A DNA stretch of 64,000 nucleotides from the human T2T-CHM13v2.0 reference genome, Homo sapiens: the NCBI GenBank assembly GCA_009914755.4, contig CP086569.2, forward strand, positions 6,240,001 through 6,304,000, written 5' to 3'. Position numbers and translations under genes: made by a program. The notes under the pieces were generated by a model that was not told the origin of the DNA, ran no database searches, and saw nothing but the letters and a program-made list of their open reading frames with translations. Below are positions 14,180 to 54,861 of the stretch, one piece after another. Within the stretch, counting starts at the first letter, position 1; each line of letters begins with the position of its first letter.

Positions 14180-16409
14180 TTGAGGCAGAGCAAGATGGCA
14201 GAATAGAAGGGTCCATTGATTGCCTCTCTTGCAAGGACACCAATTTAACAAATATATACACAAAATAAACGTTCATAAGAACCAAAAATCAAGTGAGCAC
14301 ACAGAGCACCTGTTTTTAACTTTGTATCACTGAAAGAGGCAGTGAAAAGGTAGGTAAAAAAATCTTGAATAGCGAAAACACCACCCATTCACTATCCCCT
14401 GGCAGTGGTGGCATGGTGTGGAAACATTTTAGTGCACTAGGGTGAGGGAGATCATGGCATTTGTGAGGCATTAAACTCAGTGCCGTCCTATTATAACAGA
14501 AAAAAAAAAAACCCACACCAAACTCAGCTGATGCCCACCAAGGGAGAGAGCATTTAAAACAGCCCTAACAAGAGGGGAATTACCAATACCAGAAGTGGGA
14601 ACTCGAGTTCCCACATCCCTCACCACTGCTTGCTAAAGTGCCTTGGGGAGTTAAATAAACTTGAAAAGCAGTGTAGGCCACAAGGACTGAAACACCTATG
14701 GTGAGTCCTAGTACTGAACTGGGCCCAGAGACAGTGGACTGGAGGGGCATGTTACCTACTGAGACACTAGTTGGGGAGGCTAAGGGAGTGTTAGCATCAC
14801 CCCTCCCAAAACCCTAGGCCGGGCTGGGTACGGTGGCTCACACCTGTAATCCCAGCACTTTGGGGGCCAAGGTGGGTGGATCGCCTGAGGTCAGGAGTTT
14901 GAGATCAGCCTAGCCAACATGGTGAAACCTCATCTCTACTAAAAATACAAAAATTAGCCGGGCATGGTGGTGGGAGCTTGTAATCCCAGCTACTCAGGAA
15001 GCTGAGGCAGGACAATCCCTTGAACTCAGGAGGAGGAGGTTGCAGTGAGCCAATATTGCACCATTCCATTCCAGCCTGGGCGACAAGAGCGAGACTTCAT
15101 TTCAAAAAAGAAAAAGAAAAAAAACCCTAGGCTGCAGAACTCATGGCACCAAAAGAGTCTCCTTCTCTCCACTTGAGGAGAGAAGAGGAAAGAGGCGGGA
15201 GGACTTTGTTTGTATTTTGGATACCAGCAAAGCCACAGCAGGATAGGGCATCATCAGAGTTGTGAGGCCCCCTTTCCACGTCCTAACTCACAGACAACAT
15301 TTCTAGACACACCATGGGCCAGAAGGGAACCTGCTGCCTTGAAGGGAAGGAACCAGTCCTGGCAGGATGTATCACCTGCTAACTGAAGAGCCCTTGAGCA
15401 TTGAATAACCAGCAGTGATACCCACATACTATATATAGAGGGCCGTGAGTGAGACTCTGAGACTCGCTTCTTCAGGTAAGACTCAGCACTTTCCCAGCTC
15501 CAGTAGCTATGGGAAGACACTCCACCCACTTAAGAACAGCAGATAGAAAAGTAAAGCAGACTTTGCCTTGCGACTTAAGTATCAACGTGCCCACAATGGG
15601 GAAGAGCACTAGGCAGGCTCTTGAAGTCCCAAATTTTAGGACTCGGCTCTTGGAATGCATTTTTGGAACTGTCCTAGGACACAGGGGATCCCACTGCCCT
15701 GGAGGATGAGTTCCAGGCCAGGCAACAGTCACCACAAGCTGACTTAAGAGACCTTGAGTCTTAGGGGAACATCAGTGATAGTCTGGCAATTATCCCCATA
15801 GGTCTATGGTGGTGGTGGTGGTGCTGGCCATGAGATGAAGATCTTCTGCCTTTGGAAAGGGAACAGAAAAGTGGGAAGGACTGCATCTAGTGTTTTGAGT
15901 ACCAGCTCAGCTGCAGTACAATAGAACACCAGGTAGACTTCTAAGGATCTTGCCTCTAGTCCCTGGCTCCCAGATGGCAACTCTGGACAGACCTGGGGTC
16001 TAAGGGAAGCTGCCACCCTGAAGTGAGGACACAGATCTGGCTGGATTTGCCATATGCTGTTTTTAGACCCCTGGTGCCTTGAGCAAACATAGGCAGTAGC
16101 CAGTGAGCGATTACAGCAGGCCTTGGATAAGATCCCATGCTATGCTTTCTTCAGATCTGACTCAACACAGTCTCACTGGTGGTGACTACTGAGGTGCTTG
16201 TGTCACACCACCTGCAGCTCCAGGTGTCTCAAAAGAGAGAGAGAGAGACTCTGTTTGTTTGGGAAAAAGTAAGGGAAGAGAACAGGAGTCTCAGCCTGGT
16301 AATCTAGATAATTCTTCCAGATCTTATCCAAAACTATCAAGATGGAAACTCTACGAGTCTGTAAGAACCACAGAGTTACTGCAATTAGGATGCCTCCTAA
16401 AGAAGAAAC

Positions 16410-16410: not shown

Positions 16411-17000
<590 letters not shown>

Positions 17001-25989: not shown

Positions 25990-26640
25990 TTAACTTGCAT
26001 AACAAACATTATTGCCATTAAATAACAACTCCCTATCTTTCTTCTCCCCAGCCTCTGGCAACCACCATTCTACTCTCTGCTTCTATGAGTTTATTTTCGA
26101 TTTCAAATATAAGTGAAAAAAGAACCATGCAGTGTTTATCCTTCTGTGTGGATGACTTGTTTTACTTAGCATTATGCCCTCCAGGGTCACCCATGTTGTC
26201 ATATATGGCAGAATTTCTTTTTTAATGCTGAATAATATTCCAATGTACATATATATTATGTTTTATTTTTCCATTCATCTGATGATAGACATTTAGGTTG
26301 TTTCTATATCTCAGCTATTGTAAATAATGCTGCAATTAACCTGGAAGTGAAGATATAACTTTAAGATACTGATTTCAGTAATTTTGGATAAGTATCCAGA
26401 ACTGGGATTGCTGTATCATATGGTTGTTTCATTATATTTGCTTTTTATGAAATTTCATATGATTTTTCATATCAAAAACACCATTTTATATTCCCACCAA
26501 CAATGTGCAAGTGTTCCCACTTCTCTACAACTTCAACAACACTTGATATATTTTGGTATTTTTTTGAAAATACCATTGTAAGAGATGTGAGATGGTATTT
26601 GATTGTGATTTTGATTTGCATTTCTCTGATAATTAGTGAC
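25990..26640 (-). mobile_element. Ancient L1 3'UTR, antisense. This is the 3' end of the long split L1 continuing at 27330-28304 and 34079-36400.
   Basis: ...ccccagcctctggcaaccaccattctactctctgcttctatgagtttattttcgatttcaaatataagtgaaaaaagaaccatgcagtgtttatcc...ttcccaccaacaatgtgcaagtgttcccacttctctacaacttcaacaacac...gatttgcatttctctgataattagtgacgt. Confidence 0.75.
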
Positions 26641-27328
26641 GTCGTTACAGATAGTTAGGCATGAGTGGGGCAGGAGAGGGCTCTCCCCCAACCCACTAGA
26701 ATGTCAGGTGATGGTCTGGCAATTACTGCATTGCCTCTTTAATTTGGTAATGCCAGAGGAAGGTCATTTCCTGATGGTCCAAACCTGTTAATATCAAAAT
26801 ATTAATTGAATGCATGCCCAAGGGAGAAGCAACTTCCTGCACATGAGCATTAAGAAACAAAAATGGTGAAGTATGATCTTCCGCGGGCACATTCCACCAG
26901 AAAAGGGAAGAAAACCTCAGATGGACAGGCTCATAATTCCCTTAACACACTGCGCATGCTCAACTCCAAAGAGTAAGGAAAGTACTGAGCATGTGGGAAG
27001 CCCACTCTAAGGGAAGAATCATGTGGAAGAGGCGAGCTTATAGAAGTCCTAGGATCAAGGTTAAACAGGGCACTTGACTTTCTCTTTCACCTTCACATGC
27101 CCGCTTGGGTTTCTTCCAAGTGCATCGTCCTTTCTTTCCTGTTCTAAGGCCTTTTGAAATAAACTTCCACTTCTGCTCTGGAACTTGTCTCAGTCTCTTT
27201 TTCTGCTTTATGCTCCTCAGTTGAATTCTTTCTTCTGAGGAGGCAAGAACTGAAGATGCTCCGAATCTGTAAGAATAGACCACCAGTAACTTGGGGTAAC
27301 TCGGTTCTTTTCCAATAACAACAATATT
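26641..27328 (+). mobile_element. LTR-like insertion (probable ERV solo LTR, family unassigned) inside the ancient L1
   Basis: L1 antisense sequence stops at ...attagtgacgt and resumes at tgagcacttttttat... (27330). The inserted 690 bp contains a retroviral-style AATAAA (gaaataaacttccacttctgctctgg) and retains several CpGs. Confidence 0.4.
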
Positions 27329-27329
27329 G

Positions 27330-28304
27330 AGCACTTTTTTATATATCTGTTGGTCAACTGTATGTCTTCTTTGGAAAAATGTCTAACTATTAAGGTATCT
27401 ATTAGATGTCTATCTAGTAAATTGTTTTATTTGGTTTTGTTCCTTTTTTTTTTTTTTTGCTGTTGAGTTAAAGGAGTTACTTATGCATTTTAAGTATTGT
27501 CCTGTTATGATACATCATTTGCAAATATTTTCTCCCATTCCTTAGGTTATCTTTTCATTCTGTTAACCGTTTTCTTTACTATTCGGAAGCTTTCTTATTC
27601 TTATGTAGTCCCATGTGTTTATCTTTGCTTTCATTGTCTGAGCTTTTGGTGTAATATCCAAAAAAATTATTACCAAGGCCAGTGTCACGAACTGTTTTTC
27701 TTCCCAATATTTTCTGTAAAACTGTAGCCTTAAAATTTCCGGTTTTTTGTTTAGATTTTTAATTCATTTTGAGTGAATTTTTGTGTATGGTATAATAAAA
27801 AGTATTCAATTGCATTCTTCTGCATGTAAATATTATTTTCTCAACAGAATTTGTTGAATAGAGTGATATTTTCCTGATTAGGTAACCTTGGCACCCTTGT
27901 GAAATGTCAGGCAACTGCATCTACATGAGTTTATTTCTTGGCTGTCTATTCTCTTCCATTGGACTATATGTCTATTTTTATGCCAGTACCATACAGTGGT
28001 AACTATAGTAACTTTGTTCTATATTTTGAAATGAGAAAGTGTGATACCTCCAGATTTCTTTCCTTCCCAAAATTGTTTTGACTGACTACAGATTTTATGG
28101 TTGCATTTGAATTTTAGGATTCTTCTCTATGGAAAAAATGTCATTGGGATATTTATGGGGATTGCATTGAATCCATAGATTACTTTTGGTAGTATGCATA
28201 TTTTAACAATATTAATTCTGCCAATCTATGGAAATGGAATATCTTTCTATTGGTGTCTACCTTAGTTTCTTTAATCAATGTTTTATAGATTTTGGCATAC
28301 AAAT
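27330..28304 (-). mobile_element. Ancient L1 ORF2, antisense (continuation)
   Basis: ...gtctgagcttttggtgtaatatccaaaaaaattattaccaaggccagtgtcacgaac...ccagtaccatacagtggtaactatagtaactttgttctatattttgaaatgagaaagtgtgatacctccag...atcaatgttttatagattttggcatacaaat. Confidence 0.75.
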
Positions 28305-28634
28305 TGTTGCAGAACTTTTCCTTAGTTCAGCTAAAGATGAGGTCCTTGTCTGTCCCATGGTCATGAAGATTTAGGCTCATAGACAATTTGAAGGGTGAGT
28401 AAAGCAGGGTTTTATTCAGTGAAAAGGAAGAAAAGGGGGAAAAAGAGACTCTCACAAGGCCAGAGTCTCTACTAGAGTGCTTCCCACCTGGCCATTTGAA
28501 TCTCAGTTTCCACACAGGAAGAGAAGGGGCCAAGTTCCTCCCTGCTGCAAATGTTGTGAAATTCCTAAGTTTCCACCTCAGTGGGCAGGCTGGTTGGAGT
28601 TTCTCCAGGGACTCCTTTCCAACTGGCTGTCTCA
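28305..28634. repeat. 5'-side LTR of the 28305-34074 element (330 bp, TG...CA)
   Basis: ~85% identical to 33779-34074 over ~300 bp, with a ~30-bp indel. Confidence 0.6.
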
Positions 28635-28972
28635 TTTCCCCCTCTAAAGACATGCATCTAACTGCCCTTAGATTAAGGATAAAGACAAAGATGAACTTAA
28701 CTGCTTCCTGCTGACAGGGGTTGCTGTTTGGGGGAAACGGTAGTCAGAGCTCCCTCAAAGTCCTATCTAAGGGATCCCAGCAGAAGGGGCCATCATCAGA
28801 GGCTCAGGTTGCATGACTGTTTTGAGTGTGATGTCCTGAAGGCAAGAACAGATGAACCAGGTTATTAGAAAACATGAATCAAAACAAAACAAGAGAAGGG
28901 AGAAGGACAGCTGAAAGATCCCAAGGCCTTTTACCAGTTTGTACAGGGAGAGGGAGGTCAAAAGCCCAACCG

Positions 28973-28977
<5 letters not shown>

Positions 28978-29004
<27 letters not shown>
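28978..29004 (+). repeat. Poly(A) tract, 27 bp
   Basis: Direct reading. Confidence 0.95.
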
Positions 29005-31271
29005 CTTTACCCTTTTGCCAGCAAGTTGGGCTTCTGGGTTCCCTTCCCCTGGGCCCAACCTTAAGTCAACCAGTTTAAGGTTTAGGAAATTACTCTTTAT
29101 AGTTTGGAAGATGCATCTGAAGGGAGTGTCCCATAGTATGGAGAAACAATTACCTATCAATGAAGAGACTCCTGAGGAGGAGAAAGGAATAAAAAGATGG
29201 CATTTTTTCAAAGGAGCCACAGGGGCTCAGGATGCATTTGAAAGGGGTACAGACTAAAGATGAATGGCTACCTATCTAGAAAGACAGGAGCAGGCATGCC
29301 TGGTTCCCTTCTCTTCCTAGCAGATACCCGGAGGTAAATGAGGTAGGAAGAGGAGAGGGTCCTATTTCCCTCTTCTGTCCTTGCATCCCCGAGTTCCAGT
29401 GACCTTGGCAGGTGCTGTCATAGATGTCAAAGAGACTTGCACCCATGAAGCAGGGAGACCTAGAGAATAAGAATTATCCACTCTCACCTATGTCCCTTTC
29501 CAATCTACTGTCAGTAGCCTTAGAGTTCCCTAGACCTCATTTATGCCATGGGTATTAACACAGTTTTTATTCATGAAACAGGAAGTTTGGGGTTGGCTTA
29601 ATTGGCAGGAAACAGCCACACTCACCTGCACTGTGCCTTTTAACCTCTGTTGTCATTTGCCTCTGGATCCCTCAGATCCAGTTTTCTTTCCTAGGGCTTT
29701 GACCCGAAGCTTGGAATTGAGTTTGGGACAAAAATGTTTCTCAGGGCGGTGGGGGTGGGGGTTGCATGGACTCCTTATGATAAGCTAAAGGCTAAGATGA
29801 AACTGTGGAACTGAGTTCTCCTCCAGCAAGGGAGAGGAAAGAATGTCTTGTGACACACTCAGATAACTGATAGCTATAGTTATGCTTGCTAGGATTTGGG
29901 TGCACGGTGCTTGGCTTTTGTTACCTTCCTTGGTCTTACTTTCCCAGAAGGAAACTTCTGGGTGATGGGCACCCTATTTATTCCTTATTTATTCTAACAC
30001 CTGGCAAGATTTGCAGGATAATTGCTCGGAACTAGAATATTGACACCGATTTGTACATTACCCATCCCTTTTGTTCTTTCTGAGCTGCAGCTGGAGATTG
30101 CTGGTAGGTTCACAGGAACAAGCAGAGTTAATCTAAAATGTAGGCAAAAACTTAAAAAGAACTAATGAGTTTAGAATTTAGTGACAAACGTATGGTAAGT
30201 TTTGGAACATAATGTCTCCCTCTCCAGTCCTCATTTTTGTTAAGAAACAAATGATCATAGGACTGAGTTATTCAAATAGATTTTAGTCTTATACTTGGCC
30301 TGATTATTTGCATAAAATGGAGCAAGAATAATTATTTCTACATAGGCCTTTTGGATTACCTTTGATGGAATTCTCTCTTTTCCACAAGGAATCTCAAATA
30401 AGACCTTTTAAAGCCAAGCCAAACCATGGGTTTGTATCTTCAAATACCTGTGAGTAGGGTGATCCTCACCTCTTAAGGTTCCAAGATAAACTTGGAGCTC
30501 CTACACCTGTTTGAAACTGACATTCTTTACTGACAACAAGTCAGGAACCCTGTACAAGGGCTGCACAGACAAGGATATGAGGCCAGTTTCCCCACTGGGC
30601 TTCTACTGGCTCTGTAAGTTGAGCTTGACTCTTCGAAGGGAAACATACCCTTCCAATCTAAGACTTGATAAAATGACCACTTTCTCAAGTTGTGTTCTGT
30701 TACAAAAGAAAAATGAATTCTTCTTGCACTGATGCAATTATATTGCCATAAGTTAGGAATACTCACAGAGAGTTTCTAAATTTTAGAGTAACCAGGAAGA
30801 GAGTAACAAACATGCTCCAAATTTTGTTCATAGGAGTTTATCTTACTCAATTATTGAAGACTGTAAATAGTTCAAAATAAGTTTCCTTCACTATGAAAAA
30901 CAAAACAAGGATCAGCAATATTCCAACCAAAAATCGAAAAGGTTTCTTCAGCTTTCTGAGTTCAGTTCATTTAGTTAACTCTTGTTTTGCTTGATATTCA
31001 TGAACATTTCAGTTCTTCCTTAGTCCTTACATTTTCCTTTATTCCATTGTTACAATTTACAAAGTTACCAGCAGCCTGTACTTGGGAGCACCTTTTATAG
31101 TTCTGTAGCTCATTAGAAACCATCTTTAAAAAAAATTAAAACAAGACAACAATTGTCTGTGAATAGCAAAATGTCCAGGGTAGTTACAATTAGATACGCA
31201 ATTGAAAAAAAATTTGGTTATCTCCGTGGTTTACAATAACGTAACACAAAAACCTTAATTATGATTGATAG

Positions 31272-32015
31272 TGTGTCCAGAATTGGTTCTTTCTGATGGG
31301 TTCTTGGTCTCACTGACTTCAAGAATGAAGCCGCAGACCCTCACTGTGAGTGTTACAGTTCTTAAAGATGGTGTGTGTGCAGTTTGTTCCTTCAGATGTT
31401 CAGATGTGTCCGGAGTTTGTTCCTTCAGATGTTCAGATATGTCCAGAGTTTCTTCCTTCCAGTGGGTTCATGGTCTTGCTGACTTCAGAAGTGCAGCCAC
31501 AGACCTTTGTAGTGAGTGTTACCGCTCTTAAAAGTGGCTGGTCCGGAGTTGTTTGTTCCTCCTTGTGGGTTCGTGATCTTGCTGACTTTAGGAGTGAAGC
31601 CACAAGCCTTCATGGTGTTACAGCTCATAAAGGTAGTGCAGACCCAAAGGGTGAGCAGCAGCAAGATTTGTTATGAAGAGCAAAAGAACAAAGTTTCCAC
31701 AGCATGGAAGGGGGCTGGAACGGGTTGCTGCCGCTGGCTCCGGTGGCCAGCTTTTATTCCCTTATTTGGCCCCACCCACATCCTGCTGATTGGTCCATTT
31801 TACAGAGTGCTGATTGTTCCATTTTACAGAGTGCTGATTGGTCCATTTTACAGAGTTCTGATTGGTGCGTTTTTACAGAGTGCTCATTGGTGTGTTTACA
31901 ATCCTTTAGCTAGACACAGAGCACTGATTGGTGCATTTATAATCCTTTAGCTAGACACAAAAGTTCTCCAAGTCCCCACCCCACCCAGAAGGCCAGCTGG
32001 CTTCACCTTTCAAAA
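31272..32015 (+). mobile_element. LTR12-like (HERV9 LTR family) fragment with internal tandem duplications
   Basis: ...ttcttggtctcactgacttcaagaatgaagccgcagaccctcactgtgagtgttacagttcttaaag...gagcagcagcaagatttgttatgaagagcaaaagaacaaagtttccacagcatggaagg...ctgattggtccattttacagagtg (x3)...ctagacacaaaagttctccaagtccccacc...ccagctggcttcacc matches my recollection of LTR12. A 33-bp unit is duplicated at 31381-31446. Confidence 0.55.
31786..31945 (+). promoter_or_regulatory. Cluster of five ATTGG (inverted CCAAT / NF-Y-type) boxes in 24-bp tandem units within the LTR12-like segment
   Basis: ctgattggtccattttacagagtg repeated at 31786, 31810 (attgt variant), 31834; then ctgattggtgcg..., ctcattggtgtg..., ctgattggtgcattt. 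LTR12 elements are known for reiterated NF-Y sites. Confidence 0.4.
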
Positions 32016-33778
32016 GCATATACTCAGACATTAGAATTTTAGAAATCCCATACAATTTTGAAACATATATTAGCATTATTCACCAAGATATAACCTAAAG
32101 AAGACTGAGCATCATTTTGGCCATCTCGGGTACCTAAACATGTGAAATAATCCTGTTTACCTCTCTTTTCTGGACACTTTGGGGGCCCTTTGAAGTAGCC
32201 ACAGTAGCCCTCTGAAAAGCCAGGTGCCACAGAAGACAATTGTGCAACACAAGTTTGATTTGGGGAAGGCTGTTAAATGTTCGAGGTTTAAAACACTTGA
32301 TATTAAGAAATAGAATTCCAGATTACCATAAGTTATTTATTTTGATAAAGTGATGACTCAAGTTTTAAAGAAGGAGAAACCTTTCATAACCTTTTATAAA
32401 TTTTGCCAAAAAGCAGATTAGTACCTTAGGAAAACCTTGTTATGCTTTTATTTCAATGCTCAATTTACAGACAAACCATATAATACCCTTTTTTTGAATT
32501 TAGTCAATATGTTCACACAGAGAACCTCTTCTGCAAGATTAATTCCCACAATTCTTCCACCACTTCTTTGAACCTTCAGCTTTTTCCTAATTTAACTCAA
32601 AACAGTCCTTTAACTCTAGGCAAAAGTTTACATTTCCATGCCTTCTTATAACCTTTTACTAAAAAACACATTTTACTGTTCTTATACACCTTGCATGTAA
32701 ATCTATTTCTAGTAGTTTCAATTAACTCCTGGAAATTTTTAACTTTAAGGTAAAACTTGGTAAGTTGCTTTTATTGTGTGCTAACTGCAGTCAAGGTTTG
32801 CCTTCTTAGTTAAGGGCGTTGTTAGTTCCATATGTCCCCAGGCCTTACCAATTGTGAAGCCAGCAAGTCAAATAGTTCCCAAAAGCCAAAAAGCAGTTTT
32901 TAACCTCAAAACACTTAGCAAATCTTGCATCTGACGTGCATTTTGCCAATGGTCTTAAGGGCTGTTTTTGTTTCTCAAAGATTAAAATCACATGAACTGA
33001 AAGGTTCCACAGCTTTTAACTTCCCTGTAAAAAATATTAGATCCAAGCGCTTGTCTTTCTTTAGGCCAAATTAATTAGATATCTCTTTTTACAGATATCA
33101 AGCACAGTACACACACAGGCAGAAGAAAACCTAGTTGCTGGGTGGGGCCCTCTAAGAGACAGGGCTAGGAAAACATGCGGATATCAAACCAGAAAGAAAC
33201 TTACTTCCTAAGGCAGGATTGCTAAACAAAGCCTTGACACTGGAGTTACAAGCCACGCCCTCAGGATGTAAAACAAGATGAAAGATTGATTTCACAATGA
33301 AAACTTTGCAGAGAATACACACAGTGATAGTTGGTGGGGGGTGGGGGGGAGTGGGGTATGGCCTGGTAAAATGTGTCCTAAAAGAAAAAAAAAAAAATTA
33401 ACTGCGGACAGGATGGAGAAGAGGAAAAAAGAAAGAGTTTTAGACTGCCTGGGGAAGAATCTCTTACTCTTATGCAACTGGTTCCTCCACCAGGGAGAAA
33501 AGTTTAATTACTGTCTGATGGAGAAGGAAAACCCCTTGGCTGGGGAAGGAGAAGGCTGAGAACCAGCACAGCCAGCTGTGTGAGACCCTTGGGCCATGCG
33601 ACCCAGCCCCAGCCTGGAGAGGGAAGCGGCTGGCCGACCCCCGGTTGTAACAGGGTGTAGGGGTGCAGTTCCCCGTAAGCTCAGAAGTCCAAGGATGAAA
33701 AGGCTGAGAAACCAGTGAGAGATTTTGAGTCCCCATTTTACGCACCGCTTCTCGAGCCTCCATATTGTGCGCCAAAAA

Positions 33779-34074
33779 TATTGCAAGACTTTTCCTTAGT
33801 TCAGGTAAAGATGGGGTCCTTGTCTGTCCCATGTTTGAAGGATGAGTGAAGCAGGGTTTTGTTGGGTGAAAAGGAAGAAAAGGGGGAAATCGGGACTGTC
33901 ACAAGGCCAGAGGGCCTGCTACAGTGCTTCTAGCCAGGCCATTTGAATCTGTTTCCACACTGGAAGAGGAGGGGCCAGGCTCCTCCCTGCTGCAAATGTG
34001 GTGAAATTTGGAGACTCCACCTCAGTGGGCAGGCTGGTTGGAGTTTCTCCAGCGACCTCTTCCCACCTGTCTCA
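33779..34074. repeat. 3'-side LTR of the 28305-34074 element (296 bp)
   Basis: See the 5' LTR. Followed by 'aaat' (34075-34078), and L1 resumes at 34079. Confidence 0.6.
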
Positions 34075-34078
34075 AAAT

Positions 34079-36400
34079 CTTTCACCTCCTTGTTTGAGTT
34101 CATACACAAATATTTTGACACTATTAGAAATGGGATTATTTTAATAATTCATTTTACAAATAACTTTTTGTTAGTGTATAAAATGCAAGTAACTCTTGTA
34201 TGTAGATGTTAGGTCCTGCAACCTTATTGAATTTTTTTTGTAACGTAACAGGTTTTTAGTGGAATCTTCAGGTTTCCTACATACATATAAGATCACATCA
34301 TCTGCAAATGGGAGTATTTTACTTCTTTCCTCTCAAATTGGATGGCTTTTTATTCTATTTATTGCCTAATTGCTCTGGTTAAAACTTACAGTGCTTTGCT
34401 AAATGGAAGTGGCAAGAGTACGGATCCTTGTCATGTGTCTGATCTTAGAGGAAAAGCATTCAGTTTTTTAACATTAACTATGATGTTAGCTGAGAACCTG
34501 TCATATACGGCTTTTGCTATGTTGATATAAATTTCTTTTATATGTAGTTTGTTGAGTTTTATGACTCAAGTGTGTTGAATTTTCTCAAACACTTTTTTGC
34601 ATTTATCAAGATGTACATGTGGTTTTTATCCTTCATTCTGTTAATGTGATATATCACATTAATGTCTTTCTGTATGTTTAACCATTCTTGCAACCCAGGG
34701 ATAAATTCCACTTGGTCACAGTGTACATTTTTAAATATGTTATTAAATTTGATTTGCTTGTATTTTCTTCAGGGTTTTTGCAAATATGTTCATCAGAAAT
34801 ATTGGTCTGAAGTTTACTTTTCTTGTAGTGTCTTTGTCTGACTTTGATATTAGAATAATGCTGGACTCATAAAATGAGTTTGAAAGTGTTCCCTCCTTTT
34901 AAATTTTTTGGAAGAATTTGAGTGTGATTGGTTTTATGTATTCTTTAAATGTTTGATAAAATTCATCCATGAAGACATCTGGTCTTGAGGTTGTTTTGTC
35001 GTTGTTGGGAGGTGTTTGATTACTAATTAAATTTCCTTACTTGTCGTTGGTCATTTTAGGTTTTTGATTTCTTAAAAATTCAGTCTTAGTAGGTTGTATG
35101 TCTTAGTAGTCTTAGTAGGTTGTAGTCTTAGTAGGAGTAGGAATTTCTCCATTTCTTCCAAGTTATCTAATTTCTTATTGTATAATTGCTCATACCAATG
35201 TTTGTGATTCTTTTTTATTTCTGTGGAAAGAATTGTAATGTCTTCTTTTAATTTCTAATTTTATTAATTTTAGTCTTCTCTCTTTTCTTCTTAGTCTAGT
35301 TAAATGTTTGTTAATTTTGTTGATTAAAAAACTCAGTTTCATTGATTTGTTCTAATTTTTATTTTATTATTATTATTTTTTGTTTCAGATAGTACCATTT
35401 TCTTTCTTCTGCTAACTTCTGACTTAGTTTGTTATTGTTGTTTTTGAGGTATCAAGTTAGATTGTTAATTTGTGATCTTCCTTTCTTCATTTTTTACAAG
35501 ACTCCTGGATCAGAGACAATCTTCTTTATTAATGTAGGCATTTACCATAACAAACTTCCCATTTAGTACTGCTTTTGCTGTATTCCATGAGTTTTGGTAT
35601 TATGTCTCTTCATTTTAATTTATCTTAAGATATTTTCTGATTTCTCTTTTTATTTCTTCTTTGACCCATTGATTGTTCAGAATTGTGTTTTTAATTTCCT
35701 CATATTTTTGAGTATTCTAATTTTCCTTCTCTTATGGGTTTCTGGTTTCATTCCATTGTGGAGAAAAAGATACTTAGTATGATTTCATTCTTTTAAAATT
35801 TGTTAAGACATTTTGAGAATGTGTATTTTTCTGCTGTTGGATGGAATGTTTTGTATATGACTGGTAGGTCCATTTGGTCTTTAATGATTTGAAGTCTGTT
35901 ATTTCTTTATTTTCTATTTGGATCATGTATTTGGTATTAAGAGTGGGGTATTGAAGTCTTCAGTTATTATTGTATTGCAGTTTATCTCTTTATTCTGTCT
36001 TTTTTATATTTTTAGTTCCTCTGAATAGATGTACATACATGTTTATAATTGTTGGGCCTTCCTGAGGAATTCATCATTATATGTCCTTTTGTGTCTCTTG
36101 TTACAGTGTTTGAATTATAGTCTATTTTGTCTAATATAAGTATTGCCACCCTCATTTCTTTTATTTACATTTGCATAGAATATCTTTTTCTATTCCTCGC
36201 CTTTCAGCCTAAGTCCCTAAATCTCAAGTATGGATTTTTTAGACAGCACATAGGTTTGTTTATTTGTTTTTTTTTAAATATCCATTCAACTACTTTAAGT
36301 CTTTTGATTTTGGATTTTACTTATTTTTATTTTAAATAATTTTACCTTTTTGTTGCTAAAAGAATACATTTTATAATTTTAATATTTTTGCAACTTTTGT
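34079..36400 (-). mobile_element. Ancient L1 ORF2, antisense (continuation of the split L1)
   Basis: ...gtcatctgcaaatgggagtattttacttctttcc... (antisense of the FADD region) ...ttccattgtggagaaaaagatacttagtatgatttcattcttttaaaatttgttaag...gtctaatataagtattgccaccc. Confidence 0.75.
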
Positions 36401-53721: not shown

Positions 53722-54022
<301 letters not shown>

Positions 54023-54861
54023 GAAACAGATAGTATATATAGTTTCTTCCAAATATATTTGGAATCACTTTATACCTGAATAGTCTAAATACACCAGTCA
54101 AAATCAGAAATTGGTTTTCTGTTCCTGTGTTAATTCACTTAGGATTATGGCCTCCAGTTCTATCCATGTTGTTGCAAAGGACATGCTTTTATTTTTTTCC
54201 TATAGTTGTGTAGTATTTCATGGCGTATGTGTAACACATTTTCTCAATTATAAATAGTAGCTAAATATTGAGCACACAAGGACTCAAACAAGGGAACAAC
54301 AGACACTGTGGACTACTAGATGGGGGAGATGGAAAGAAGGAGGTGGGTTGAAAAACTACCTATTGGGTAATATGTCAGTACCGGGGTGCAATATAACCAT
54401 GTAAAAAATCTGCACATGTACGTTCTGTATCTAAAAAAAAAGTTGAATTTAAAAAAAAAGAAATTGGGAAGTATGATCAACTGATAAACACCAATGTAGG
54501 GAAAGATGTAGACTTAAGAACACTCTTACACAATACTTATTAGAGTTTTAATTGGTATGATCACTTTTGGGAGCCATTTGGTAATATCTCGTGAGATTAA
54601 AAATGTGCATATTTCATGACCAGACAATTCCAACCCTCAATGTCTATATCAGATATGTTCTATTTTATATATGCCAGGAAACATATGAAAAAAAGTATTT
54701 ACTTTAGCGCTTGTTGATATCAGCAAATAAAGCGTAAATAAATTAACTTTCTGCCAATAGGAAAATGGGTGACTTAGAGATAGCTTATTTTTATAAGAAA
54801 ATAGTATATAATATTAGAAATGAATTCAGTTGATTTACTTGTATCAAGAGGGATAAATATA

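What the first reader, a model, noticed from the sequence alone, without database searches (positions are those of the whole stretch)
28301..34078. 5.8-kb LTR-bounded insertion with 4-bp TSD splitting an ancient L1. The interior is non-coding and mosaic.
Two ~300-330 bp direct repeats (28305-28634 and 33779-34074) are roughly 85% identical, with a 30-bp indel. Each begins TGttgca(g/a)ac and ends ...tgtctCA. The 4-mer aaat flanks both ends. The interrupted ancient L1 (antisense) reads continuously across the insertion (...ggcatacaaat | ctttcacctcc...). That is the signature of an LTR retrotransposon or ERV integration rather than a segmental duplication. The 5.1-kb interior has no ORF >150 aa. 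It carries a 27-bp poly-A tract, an LTR12-like segment, and a CpG-retaining GC-rich patch, so it has been remodelled by secondary events. I could not assign the outer LTRs to a named family.
Basis: partly seen in the sequence, partly recalled or inferred. Interest (0 to 1): 0.5.

Follow-up and report, generated by a model that had tools for sequence, protein, structure and literature searches.

The report
Decayed endogenous retrovirus splitting an L1
This is an old, dead endogenous-retrovirus copy (two LTRs, primer-binding site, polypurine tract, 4-bp target duplication) that inserted into an older L1 in a primate genome and was later hit by an LTR12 insertion; it is an ordinary genomic fossil, not a new kind of element.

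Summary
Direct repeats at 28305-28634 and 33779-34074 are 88.8% identical. Both are flanked by AAAT. Removing the insert and one AAAT restores an L1 ORF2 frame (…NKEVKDLYAKIYKTL…) that aligns without a gap to solved L1 ORF2p.

The element lies on the minus strand. Its LTRs read TGAGACAG…AATAAA…TGCAACA. A tRNA-Lys1,2-type primer-binding site follows the 5' LTR, and a polypurine tract (AGAGGGGGAAA) abuts the 3' LTR.

Ten metagenome contigs of primate contamination carry 72-86% identical copies with the same termini, PBS, PPT and adjoining interior, so this is a dispersed family.

No gag or pol was detected. A weak relic of a gamma-type Env TM tail survives 153-263 bp upstream of the 3' LTR and is clearer in two sister copies. 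With the 4-bp duplication, this points to a class I (ERV1-like) element, probably from a lineage that was already defective.

Two of the three "mosaic" features are secondary: a minus-strand LTR12 solo LTR (~31272-32018) and a copy-specific 27-A run. The CpG-retaining GC-rich patch is the element's own PBS and leader.

LTR divergence suggests integration about 28-60 Mya. I could not name the family because no Dfam or RepeatMasker was available. Interest is low.

The parts
28301..28304 (.). Target-site duplication, left copy (AAAT on the plus strand)
   Evidence: Identical 4-mer directly outside both LTR ends. One copy is needed to restore the L1 ORF2 frame.
28305..28634 (-). 3' LTR of the element (330 bp). 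Sense strand reads TGAGACAGCC…AATAAA…TTCTGCAACA.
   Evidence: The termini match the family consensus from L001-L010. The AATAAA is about 110 nt from the 3' end in sense orientation.
28635..28645 (-). Polypurine tract AGAGGGGGAAA, directly upstream of the 3' LTR
   Evidence: Conserved as TTTAGAGGGGGGAA|TGAGACAG in L006, L007, L008 and L009.
28788..28898 (-). Relic of the gamma-type Env TM membrane anchor and cytoplasmic tail (LLLFCFDSCFLITWFICSCLQDITLKTVMQPEPLMMA)
   Evidence: Local Env profile search with filters off. The homologous site scores 15.3 bits in L006 (E 3e-5), 14.3 bits in L007 (E 7e-5) and 5.0 bits in the window (E 0.044). The shuffled maximum is 6.6 bits. BLASTP of the window peptide gives 46% identity over 37 aa to Env P0059. 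Pfam PF00429 does not detect it.
28635..29968 (-). 3' part of the family-specific interior
   Evidence: 80% identity to L006 over 28496-29195. L007 matches 28305-28925 and 29873-29968.
28978..29004 (+). Copy-specific run of 27 A (poly-T in element sense)
   Evidence: TRF. It is absent at the aligned position in L006, and nothing else is inserted with it.
29969..31271 (-). Central interior, partly AT-rich, origin unverified
   Evidence: No Pfam or protein hits in any frame. No similarity to the rest of the window. No other copy was available that covers it.
31272..32018 (-). Secondary insertion: LTR12 (ERV9) solo LTR in the same orientation as the host element. The 5' limit is approximate.
   Evidence: About 41-nt and 24-nt U3 tandem repeats carry CCAAT, TCTGTGTCTAGCT and GTGGGGA motifs. 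U5 repeats are present, and the LTR ends …CTGGACACA. These match the published LTR12 description.
32019..33289 (-). Central interior, AT-rich, origin unverified
   Evidence: As for 29969-31271.
33290..33756 (-). Family-specific 5' leader, including the CpG-retaining GC-rich patch, a GGTG(A/C)GT splice-donor-like site and a short ORF starting MGTQNLS
   Evidence: Aligns with L007, L008 and L010. CpG observed/expected is 0.56.
33757..33774 (-). Primer-binding site TGGCGCACAATATGGAGG, 4 nt (TTTT) after the 5' LTR
   Evidence: 13/18 matches to the tRNA-Lys1,2 PBS TGGCGCCCAACGTGGGGC in the window, and 15/18 in each of L007, L008 and L010 at the same position. The 18-mer is taken from PMC8775094.
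33779..34074 (-). 5' LTR of the element (296 bp), with a derived 27-bp U5 deletion and AATAAA mutated to AACAAA
34075..34078 (.). Target-site duplication, right copy (AAAT)
26214..28300 (-). Host L1, C-terminal part of ORF2 downstream of the insertion point. It carries a second, unrelated ~685-bp interruption at ~26638-27323.
   Evidence: ORF2 motifs were located by translation. The junction aligns to ORF2p.
34079..36185 (-). Host L1, ORF2 endonuclease and RT part upstream of the insertion point

Best explanation
Region 28305-34074 is one decayed proviral copy of a dispersed primate ERV family, lying on the minus strand.

How it arose:
- A retroviral RNA carrying this family's LTR, PBS, packaging region and PPT signals was reverse-transcribed. 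tRNA-Lys1,2 primed the minus strand at the PBS, and the polypurine tract primed the plus strand. This regenerated two identical LTRs.
- A retroviral integrase inserted the DNA into the ORF2 region of an older L1 and made a 4-bp staggered cut, leaving AAAT on both sides.

What kind of virus it came from:
- The 4-bp duplication and a surviving fragment of a gamma-type Env TM tail place the source lineage among class I (gammaretrovirus-like, ERV1) elements.
- No gag or pol is detectable. Sister copies share the same stop codons in the Env relic. The family was therefore probably already defective when it spread, copied in trans by proteins of a competent relative.

What happened after integration (about 28-60 Mya from LTR divergence):
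- It has decayed neutrally.
- It lost 27 bp of U5 and the poly-A signal in the 5' LTR.
- It gained an ERV9 LTR12 solo LTR and a 27-A run.
- It has no evident present function.

Shown: the structure, the single integration, the existence of the family, the PBS and PPT, and the Env relic in sister copies. Inferred: the class assignment, trans-mobilisation and the age.
For: 1. Paired LTRs at 88.8% identity, each with about 6-7% private changes and 9 shared derived sites relative to the family majority.
2. A 4-bp TSD, and exact restoration of the L1 ORF2 frame across the junction.
3. Family termini TGAGACAG…TGCAACA are identical in independent copies L001-L010 with unrelated flanks.
4. The PPT is conserved in 5 copies. 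The PBS matches tRNA-Lys1,2 at 13-15 of 18 positions in 4 copies, 3-4 nt after the LTR.
5. The AATAAA is in minus-strand orientation and conserved in the family.
6. The Env TM tail relic lies where env should end. It scores 15.3 and 14.3 bits in L006 and L007 against a shuffled maximum of 6.6. BLASTP gives 43-55% identity to HERV-W-type Env tails.
7. No retroviral domain in six frames. No protein homologue at E<=1e-3 among 5.8 billion proteins.
8. Stop codons fall at identical positions in three copies.
9. The inserted LTR12 belongs to a family active about 30-6 Mya, consistent with an older host element.
Against: - The window copy's own Env signal is within noise (5.0 bits, E 0.044). The claim rests on 80%-identical sister copies.
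- Pfam's curated Env model sees nothing.
- A tRNA-Lys PBS is typical of class II rather than class I human ERVs.
- About 2.6 kb of central interior (29969-31271 and 32019-33289) could not be shown to belong to the family.
- Non-autonomy is inferred from absence of signal in one full copy plus the ends of a few others.
- The family has no curated name from me.
Confidence: 0.85

Rival explanations
1. It is a class II (betaretrovirus-like, type-D or ERVK-related) element rather than class I. The tRNA-Lys1,2 PBS and an RD114/type-D-style Env tail are the combination seen in simian type-D retroviruses.
For: The PBS consensus equals the tRNA-Lys1,2 18-mer used by SERV. [quoted passage not shown] The Env tail resembles …FVSSRIEAIKLQMVLQMEP…, which from my own knowledge is also found in type-D viruses.
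Against: The TSD is exactly 4 bp, fixed by the L1 reading frame. A solo copy, L002, is compatible with 4 bp (ATAC/ATAT, 3 of 4) but not with 5 or 6 bp. Group II elements make duplications of 5-6 bp. PBS usage is an unstable trait, and some class I HERV-H copies use Lys. No pro, dUTPase or pol of any kind was detected.
Confidence: 0.07
2. It was a complete, autonomous provirus at integration. Its coding regions were destroyed only in this copy by later deletion, substitution and insertion, so the family is not intrinsically non-autonomous.
For: The interior is 4.4 kb after removing LTR12, shorter than a full provirus. L007 shows a ~950-bp length difference in the 3' interior, so indels are common. 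An Env relic proves a coding ancestry.
Against: About 6-7% decay per LTR normally leaves pol and gag readily detectable, yet none is seen in six frames. L006, L007 and the window share stop codons, and there is no Env ectodomain signal upstream of the relic. The 5' 500-700 bp of L007 and L008 also lack any gag signal.
Confidence: 0.2
3. The central 2.6 kb of AT-rich interior is not ERV sequence. It would be captured host DNA or one or more unrecognised older transposon insertions, making the interior a true mosaic.
For: GC content drops to 0.30-0.38 there, against 0.42-0.54 in the verified ERV ends. None of the ten related contigs covers it. Host-gene capture by ERVs is documented.
Against: There is no similarity to L1 or other repeats elsewhere in the window. 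There are no L1, transposase or other domains in any frame. No internal TSD or poly-A boundaries were seen apart from the 27-A run, which brings no extra sequence.
Confidence: 0.3
4. The two repeats are not a provirus. They would be a local segmental duplication, or two independently inserted solo LTRs that happen to bracket 5 kb.
For: None beyond the bare existence of two similar repeats.
Against: Identical 4-bp flanks with exact restoration of the L1 frame require one insertion event. The PBS sits inside one LTR and the PPT inside the other, in the correct orientation. The LTRs share 9 derived sites.
Confidence: 0.01

Closest known systems
Class I (gammaretrovirus-like, ERV1) human endogenous retroviruses, especially the HERV-W / ERV9 group
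   Same: LTR-PBS-interior-PPT-LTR layout. TG…CA termini. 4-bp target duplication. A GGGGGGAA|TGA… PPT/U3 junction resembling MLV (from my memory of the MoMLV sequence; not found in the searchable literature). An Env TM tail 43-55% identical to syncytin-1-like proteins.
   Different: PBS of tRNA-Lys1,2 type rather than Arg, His or Pro. No recognisable gag or pol. Short LTRs (~325 bp). Membership in a named family was not established.
Simian type-D retroviruses (SRV/MPMV, SERV)
   Same: The tRNA-Lys1,2 PBS 18-mer and an RD114/type-D-style Env cytoplasmic tail.
   Different: Those viruses are betaretroviruses with 6-bp duplications (established knowledge). Here the duplication is 4 bp, and no beta-type genes are present.
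Non-autonomous LTR elements such as MaLR (THE1/MST) and the defective ERV variants described by Frith 2025 (for example the MER41E interior with a pol-env deletion)
   Same: LTR-bounded, with PBS and PPT retained and coding capacity missing or truncated. Spread presumably in trans.
   Different: MaLRs are ERVL-related with 5-bp duplications and a different interior. This family keeps a gamma-type Env fragment.
LTR12 (ERV9) solo LTR
   Same: The segment ~31272-32018 has the diagnostic U3 ~41-nt repeats with CCAAT, GATA-like and GTGGGGA motifs, and repeated U5 units.
   Different: It is heavily CpG-decayed. Its subfamily and its own target duplication were not resolved. It is a passenger, not part of the host element.

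Membership tests
LTR retroelement / ERV provirus | Two direct LTRs with TG…CA termini | tested here: met
   330-bp and 296-bp repeats at 88.8% identity. The family consensus is TGAGACAG…TGCAACA. One terminal TG has mutated to TA in the 5' LTR copy.
LTR retroelement / ERV provirus | Short target-site duplication from a single integration | tested here: met
   AAAT on both sides. The L1 ORF2 frame is restored exactly when the insert and one AAAT are removed.
LTR retroelement / ERV provirus | tRNA primer-binding site just downstream of the 5' LTR | tested here: met
   A TGG… 18-mer lies 3-4 nt after the LTR in 4 of 4 copies, with 13-15 of 18 matches to tRNA-Lys1,2.
LTR retroelement / ERV provirus | Polypurine tract abutting the 3' LTR | tested here: met
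   AGAGGGGG(G)AA|TG in 5 of 5 copies.
LTR retroelement / ERV provirus | gag, pol and env coding regions or their remnants | tested here: inconclusive
   No gag or pol in six frames. Only a ~37-aa Env TM tail relic, convincing in the sister copies and weak in the window.
Class I (ERV1, gamma-like) | 4-bp target-site duplication | tested here: met
   Solo copy L002 has ATAC/ATAT.
Class I (ERV1, gamma-like) | Gamma-type (TLV_coat) Env TM | tested here: met
   A local profile built from 65 PF00429 proteins hits L006 and L007 at 15.3 and 14.3 bits, against a shuffled maximum of 6.6. BLASTP E about 1e-7. Caveat: Pfam's own model does not report it.
Class I (ERV1, gamma-like) | Gamma-type pol (RT/IN) by phylogeny | not testable with these tools
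   No pol remnant was detected in the only full-length copy available.
Class II (ERVK, beta-like) | 5-6-bp target-site duplication | tested here: not met
   The 5- and 6-mers flanking the element differ (CAAAT vs AAATC; ACAAAT vs AAATCT), and the ORF2 frame needs exactly 4 bp.
Class II (ERVK, beta-like) | tRNA-Lys PBS | tested here: met
   This is not exclusive to class II.
Class III (ERVL / MaLR) | 5-bp TSD, with an ERVL-type or MaLR interior | tested here: not met
   The TSD is 4 bp. The Env relic is gamma-type, whereas ERVL lacks env (established knowledge).
LTR12 / ERV9 solo LTR (segment ~31272-32018) | U3 tandem ~41-nt repeats with CCAAT (NF-Y), GATA and GTGGGGA motifs; repeated U5 units | tested here: met
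   TRF periods of 41 and 24 at 31784-31959 and 33 at 31381-31459. The motifs are visible in the sequence. Definition from PMC11853044.
LTR12 / ERV9 solo LTR (segment ~31272-32018) | Its own TG…CA ends and a 4-bp TSD | tested here: inconclusive
   The 3' end …GGACACA at 31272 is clear. The 5' end and the duplication could not be fixed (ATAG on one side; TATA or ATAC on the other).
A named Dfam/Repbase LTR family | Significant match of both LTRs and the interior to a curated consensus | not testable with these tools
   No Dfam or RepeatMasker was available. Text searches for diagnostic strings found nothing.

The most novel reading that the evidence does not exclude
The family could be a poorly annotated or unannotated ERV1 lineage that pairs a tRNA-Lys1,2 primer-binding site with an RD114/HERV-W/type-D-style Env tail and a gamma-type 4-bp integration footprint. 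That would make it a fossil relative of the gamma-type env donor, or of a recombination partner, of type-D retroviruses, surviving only as a defective, trans-mobilised derivative.
Probability: 0.08. Interest if true: 0.35.

Novelty: already known. Interest (0 to 1): 0.1.

Why it matters
It matters little beyond annotation. The nested order gives relative ages for this stretch of a primate genome: first the L1, then the ERV, then the LTR12 and the poly-A run.

It also illustrates two practical points:
- An apparently non-coding LTR element can still be classified from its target-duplication length, PBS, PPT and a ~37-residue Env remnant.
- PBS type alone would have misclassified it, since tRNA-Lys suggests class II.

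If the family proved to be uncurated, it would add a Lys-primed, gamma-Env lineage to the primate ERV catalogue.

Tried and rejected
1. Pfam on X-masked translations of all six frames of the interior found nothing apart from one chance PAN_3 hit at E 0.06.
2. One search of all three sense frames (4423 aa, LTR12 removed) against 5.8 billion proteins gave no hit at E<=1e-3.
3. By eye I matched …FMFSNNLVHLF…DPLDR… to the syncytin-1 tail. This is rejected: the profile search placed the real Env relic in a different frame.
4. The 'MGQT…' start inside U5 looked like a gag N-terminus. It is not conserved in other copies, so it is chance.
5. Pfam on sense frames of L006, L007 and L008, and on the window Env peptide, found nothing.
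6. K-mer scans of genome contigs (twice) and viral contigs found no copies. Only the metagenome scan was productive.
7. Literature searches for diagnostic LTR strings and for the MLV PPT/U3 junction found nothing. An LTR12 string search hit only an unrelated software paper.
8. I looked for a family name or for class I groups that use a Lys PBS. None was found.
9. Rfam and tRNA scans of the window found nothing.
10. The poly-A as the tail of a retroposed insert is rejected. L006 shows that only the A-run is extra.
11. A segmental duplication, or two independent solo LTRs, is rejected on the TSD, the L1 frame and the placement of the PBS and PPT.


Full report
**Observation**

The two direct repeats exist where stated, at 28305-28634 (330 bp) and 33779-34074 (296 bp). 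A global alignment gives 261/294 identical positions (88.8%), K2P distance 0.122, with one 27-bp indel and three small ones. AAAT flanks both ends (28301-28304 and 34075-34078).

I joined the flanks with a single AAAT and translated the minus strand. The result reads …SNKEVKDLYAKIYKTLIKETKVDTNR…. This aligns without a gap, across the junction, to solved human L1 ORF2p (8c8j, 8sxt, 8uw3; E about 1e-8). The duplication is therefore exactly 4 bp, and the insert arrived in one event. The host L1 runs on the minus strand from at least 36185 to 26214.

**Orientation and retroviral signals**

On the minus strand the LTR begins TGAGACAG, carries AATAAA about 110 nt before its end, and ends TGCAACA. 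The 5' LTR is therefore 34074→33779 and the 3' LTR is 28634→28305.
- Four nucleotides after the 5' LTR lies TGGCGCACAATATGGAGG (33774→33757).
- Directly before the 3' LTR lies AGAGGGGGAAA (28645→28635).

**It is a dispersed family**

A 21-mer shared by both LTRs found ten metagenome contigs, L001-L010. Several also carry Alu-like sequence, so they are primate contamination. They hold copies 72-86% identical to the window LTRs, with unrelated flanks and the same termini.
- L006-L009 carry the same PPT (TTTAGAGGGGGGAA|TGAGACAG) and the adjoining interior.
- L007, L008 and L010 carry the same post-LTR motif and leader.

Across the four copies the motif matches the tRNA-Lys1,2 PBS TGGCGCCCAACGTGGGGC at 13, 15, 15 and 15 of 18 positions. 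The differences fall mostly at CpG sites. The 18-mer's identity comes from PMC8775094.

The two window LTRs share 9 derived sites against the family majority. They have 15 and 17 private changes over 247 informative columns, as expected for sister LTRs. The 27-bp indel is a derived deletion in the 5' LTR, which has also lost its AATAAA.

**Coding content**

Pfam found no retroviral, or any other credible, domain in six X-masked frames of the interior. A search of all sense frames against 5.8 billion proteins found nothing at E<=1e-3. The longest stop-free stretch is 144 aa and lies in the LTR12 segment.

I retrieved 120 real PF00429 Env proteins, using a syncytin-1 TM bait recalled from memory. 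I built a 314-position profile from 65 of them and searched it, with filters off, against all six frames of the element and the ten contigs.
- The three best hits were the same homologous site in L006 (15.3 bits, E 3e-5), L007 (14.3 bits, E 7e-5) and the window (5.0 bits, E 0.044).
- All three map to the membrane-anchor and cytoplasmic-tail segment LLLFGPCIFNLLVKFVSSRIEAIKLQMVLQLEPQM.
- Forty whole-set shuffles gave a maximum of 6.6 bits.
- BLASTP gives 43-55% identity over 33-46 aa for L006 and L007, and 46% over 37 aa for the window peptide.

The relic lies at window 28788-28898, which is 153-263 bp upstream of the 3' LTR, where env should end. Pfam's own model does not report it, so the signal is weak, and in the window copy alone it is within noise. 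The three copies share stop codons in the frames compared, and no Env ectodomain signal lies upstream. This suggests the founder was already defective.

**Class**

A 4-bp duplication together with a gamma-type Env points to class I (ERV1-like). The Lys PBS is more typical of class II. However, group II elements make 5-6-bp duplications, and PBS usage is known to be labile, with some HERV-H copies using Lys. Without pol the class cannot be proven by phylogeny. I could not name the family, because no Dfam or RepeatMasker was available and text searches failed.

**The 'mosaic' interior**

1. About 31272-32018 is an LTR12 (ERV9) solo LTR on the minus strand.
   - Its U3 has ~41-nt and 24-nt tandem repeats with CCAAT, TCTGTGTCTAGCT and GTGGGGA motifs.
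   - It has repeated U5 units and ends …CTGGACACA.
   - This matches the published description. ERV9 was active about 30-6 Mya.
   - Its 5' edge and its own duplication are unresolved.
2. The 27-A run (28978-29004) is absent from L006 at the aligned position and brings no other sequence with it. It is a copy-specific addition.
3. The GC-rich, CpG-retaining patch (8 CpG in 33601-33800, observed/expected 0.56) is the PBS and leader, shared with L007, L008 and L010. It is ancestral, not a secondary event.
4. Regions 28635-29195, 29873-29968 and 33290-33778 are verified family interior.
5. The central ~2.6 kb (29969-31271 and 32019-33289; GC 0.30-0.38) could not be checked against another copy. 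It has no similarity to the rest of the window.

**Age**

K2P 0.122 between the LTRs gives about 28 My at 2.2e-9 substitutions per site per year, and about 61 My at 1e-9. This fits an element older than its LTR12 passenger and younger than the L1 it split.

**Verdict**

This is a single, ancient, now inert ERV integration of class I type. It most likely belongs to a defective, trans-mobilised lineage and is nested in an older L1. Its orientation and the status of the GC-rich patch needed correction. This is an ordinary, well-understood kind of genomic fossil, and interest is low.

Noticed in passing
L007:120-1275 and L008:1-680: Two distinct family copies (81.6% identical to each other) each show the 3' interior with PPT, then one LTR, then the PBS and 5' leader. 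That is an LTR flanked by internal sequence on both sides. It could be a tandem provirus sharing a central LTR, or an assembly collapse.
   Followed up: partly
L006:1-272: This contig is chimeric. Its LTR is cut after ~139 nt and fused to a DEAD-box helicase ORF (…[30 protein letters not shown]… / …LAPTRELAYQISQSFESLG) that looks like a fungal RRP3/DDX47 homologue. This shows that the structure of these low-coverage contigs cannot be trusted.
   Followed up: partly
window 26638-27323: There is a second interruption of about 685 bp in the same host L1, between ORF2 motifs …KKCSILL and EMQIKITIKYHL. On the plus strand it starts TGACG…, ends …AACA, and has AATAAA about 150 nt before its end. It is probably a solo LTR of another family.
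   Followed up: partly
window 16503-16795: A full-length Alu (GGCCGGGCATGGTGGCTCACGCC…) is flanked by a perfect 19-bp target duplication, AAAAACCATTTAATAATTT. Further Alu-like copies lie near 239-535, 8043-8337, 14808-15050 and 53727-54025. They mark the window as primate DNA.
   Followed up: partly
window 33733-33470 (minus strand): A short ORF starting MGTQNLS… lies about 20 nt after the PBS, just past a GGTG(A/C)GT splice-donor-like site. The ATG is kept in L007, L008 and L010, but the peptide has no detectable homologue. It could be a vestigial gag start or chance.
   Followed up: partly
window 35082-35134: A small tandem duplication (26-bp unit, 2.1 copies, 96% matches) lies inside the L1 flank.
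   Followed up: no
window 33779-34074: The 5' LTR has lost 27 bp of U5, and its poly-A signal has mutated (AATAAA to AACAAA). Its terminal dinucleotide has also mutated (TG to TA on the plus strand). All three are derived relative to the family.
   Followed up: yes
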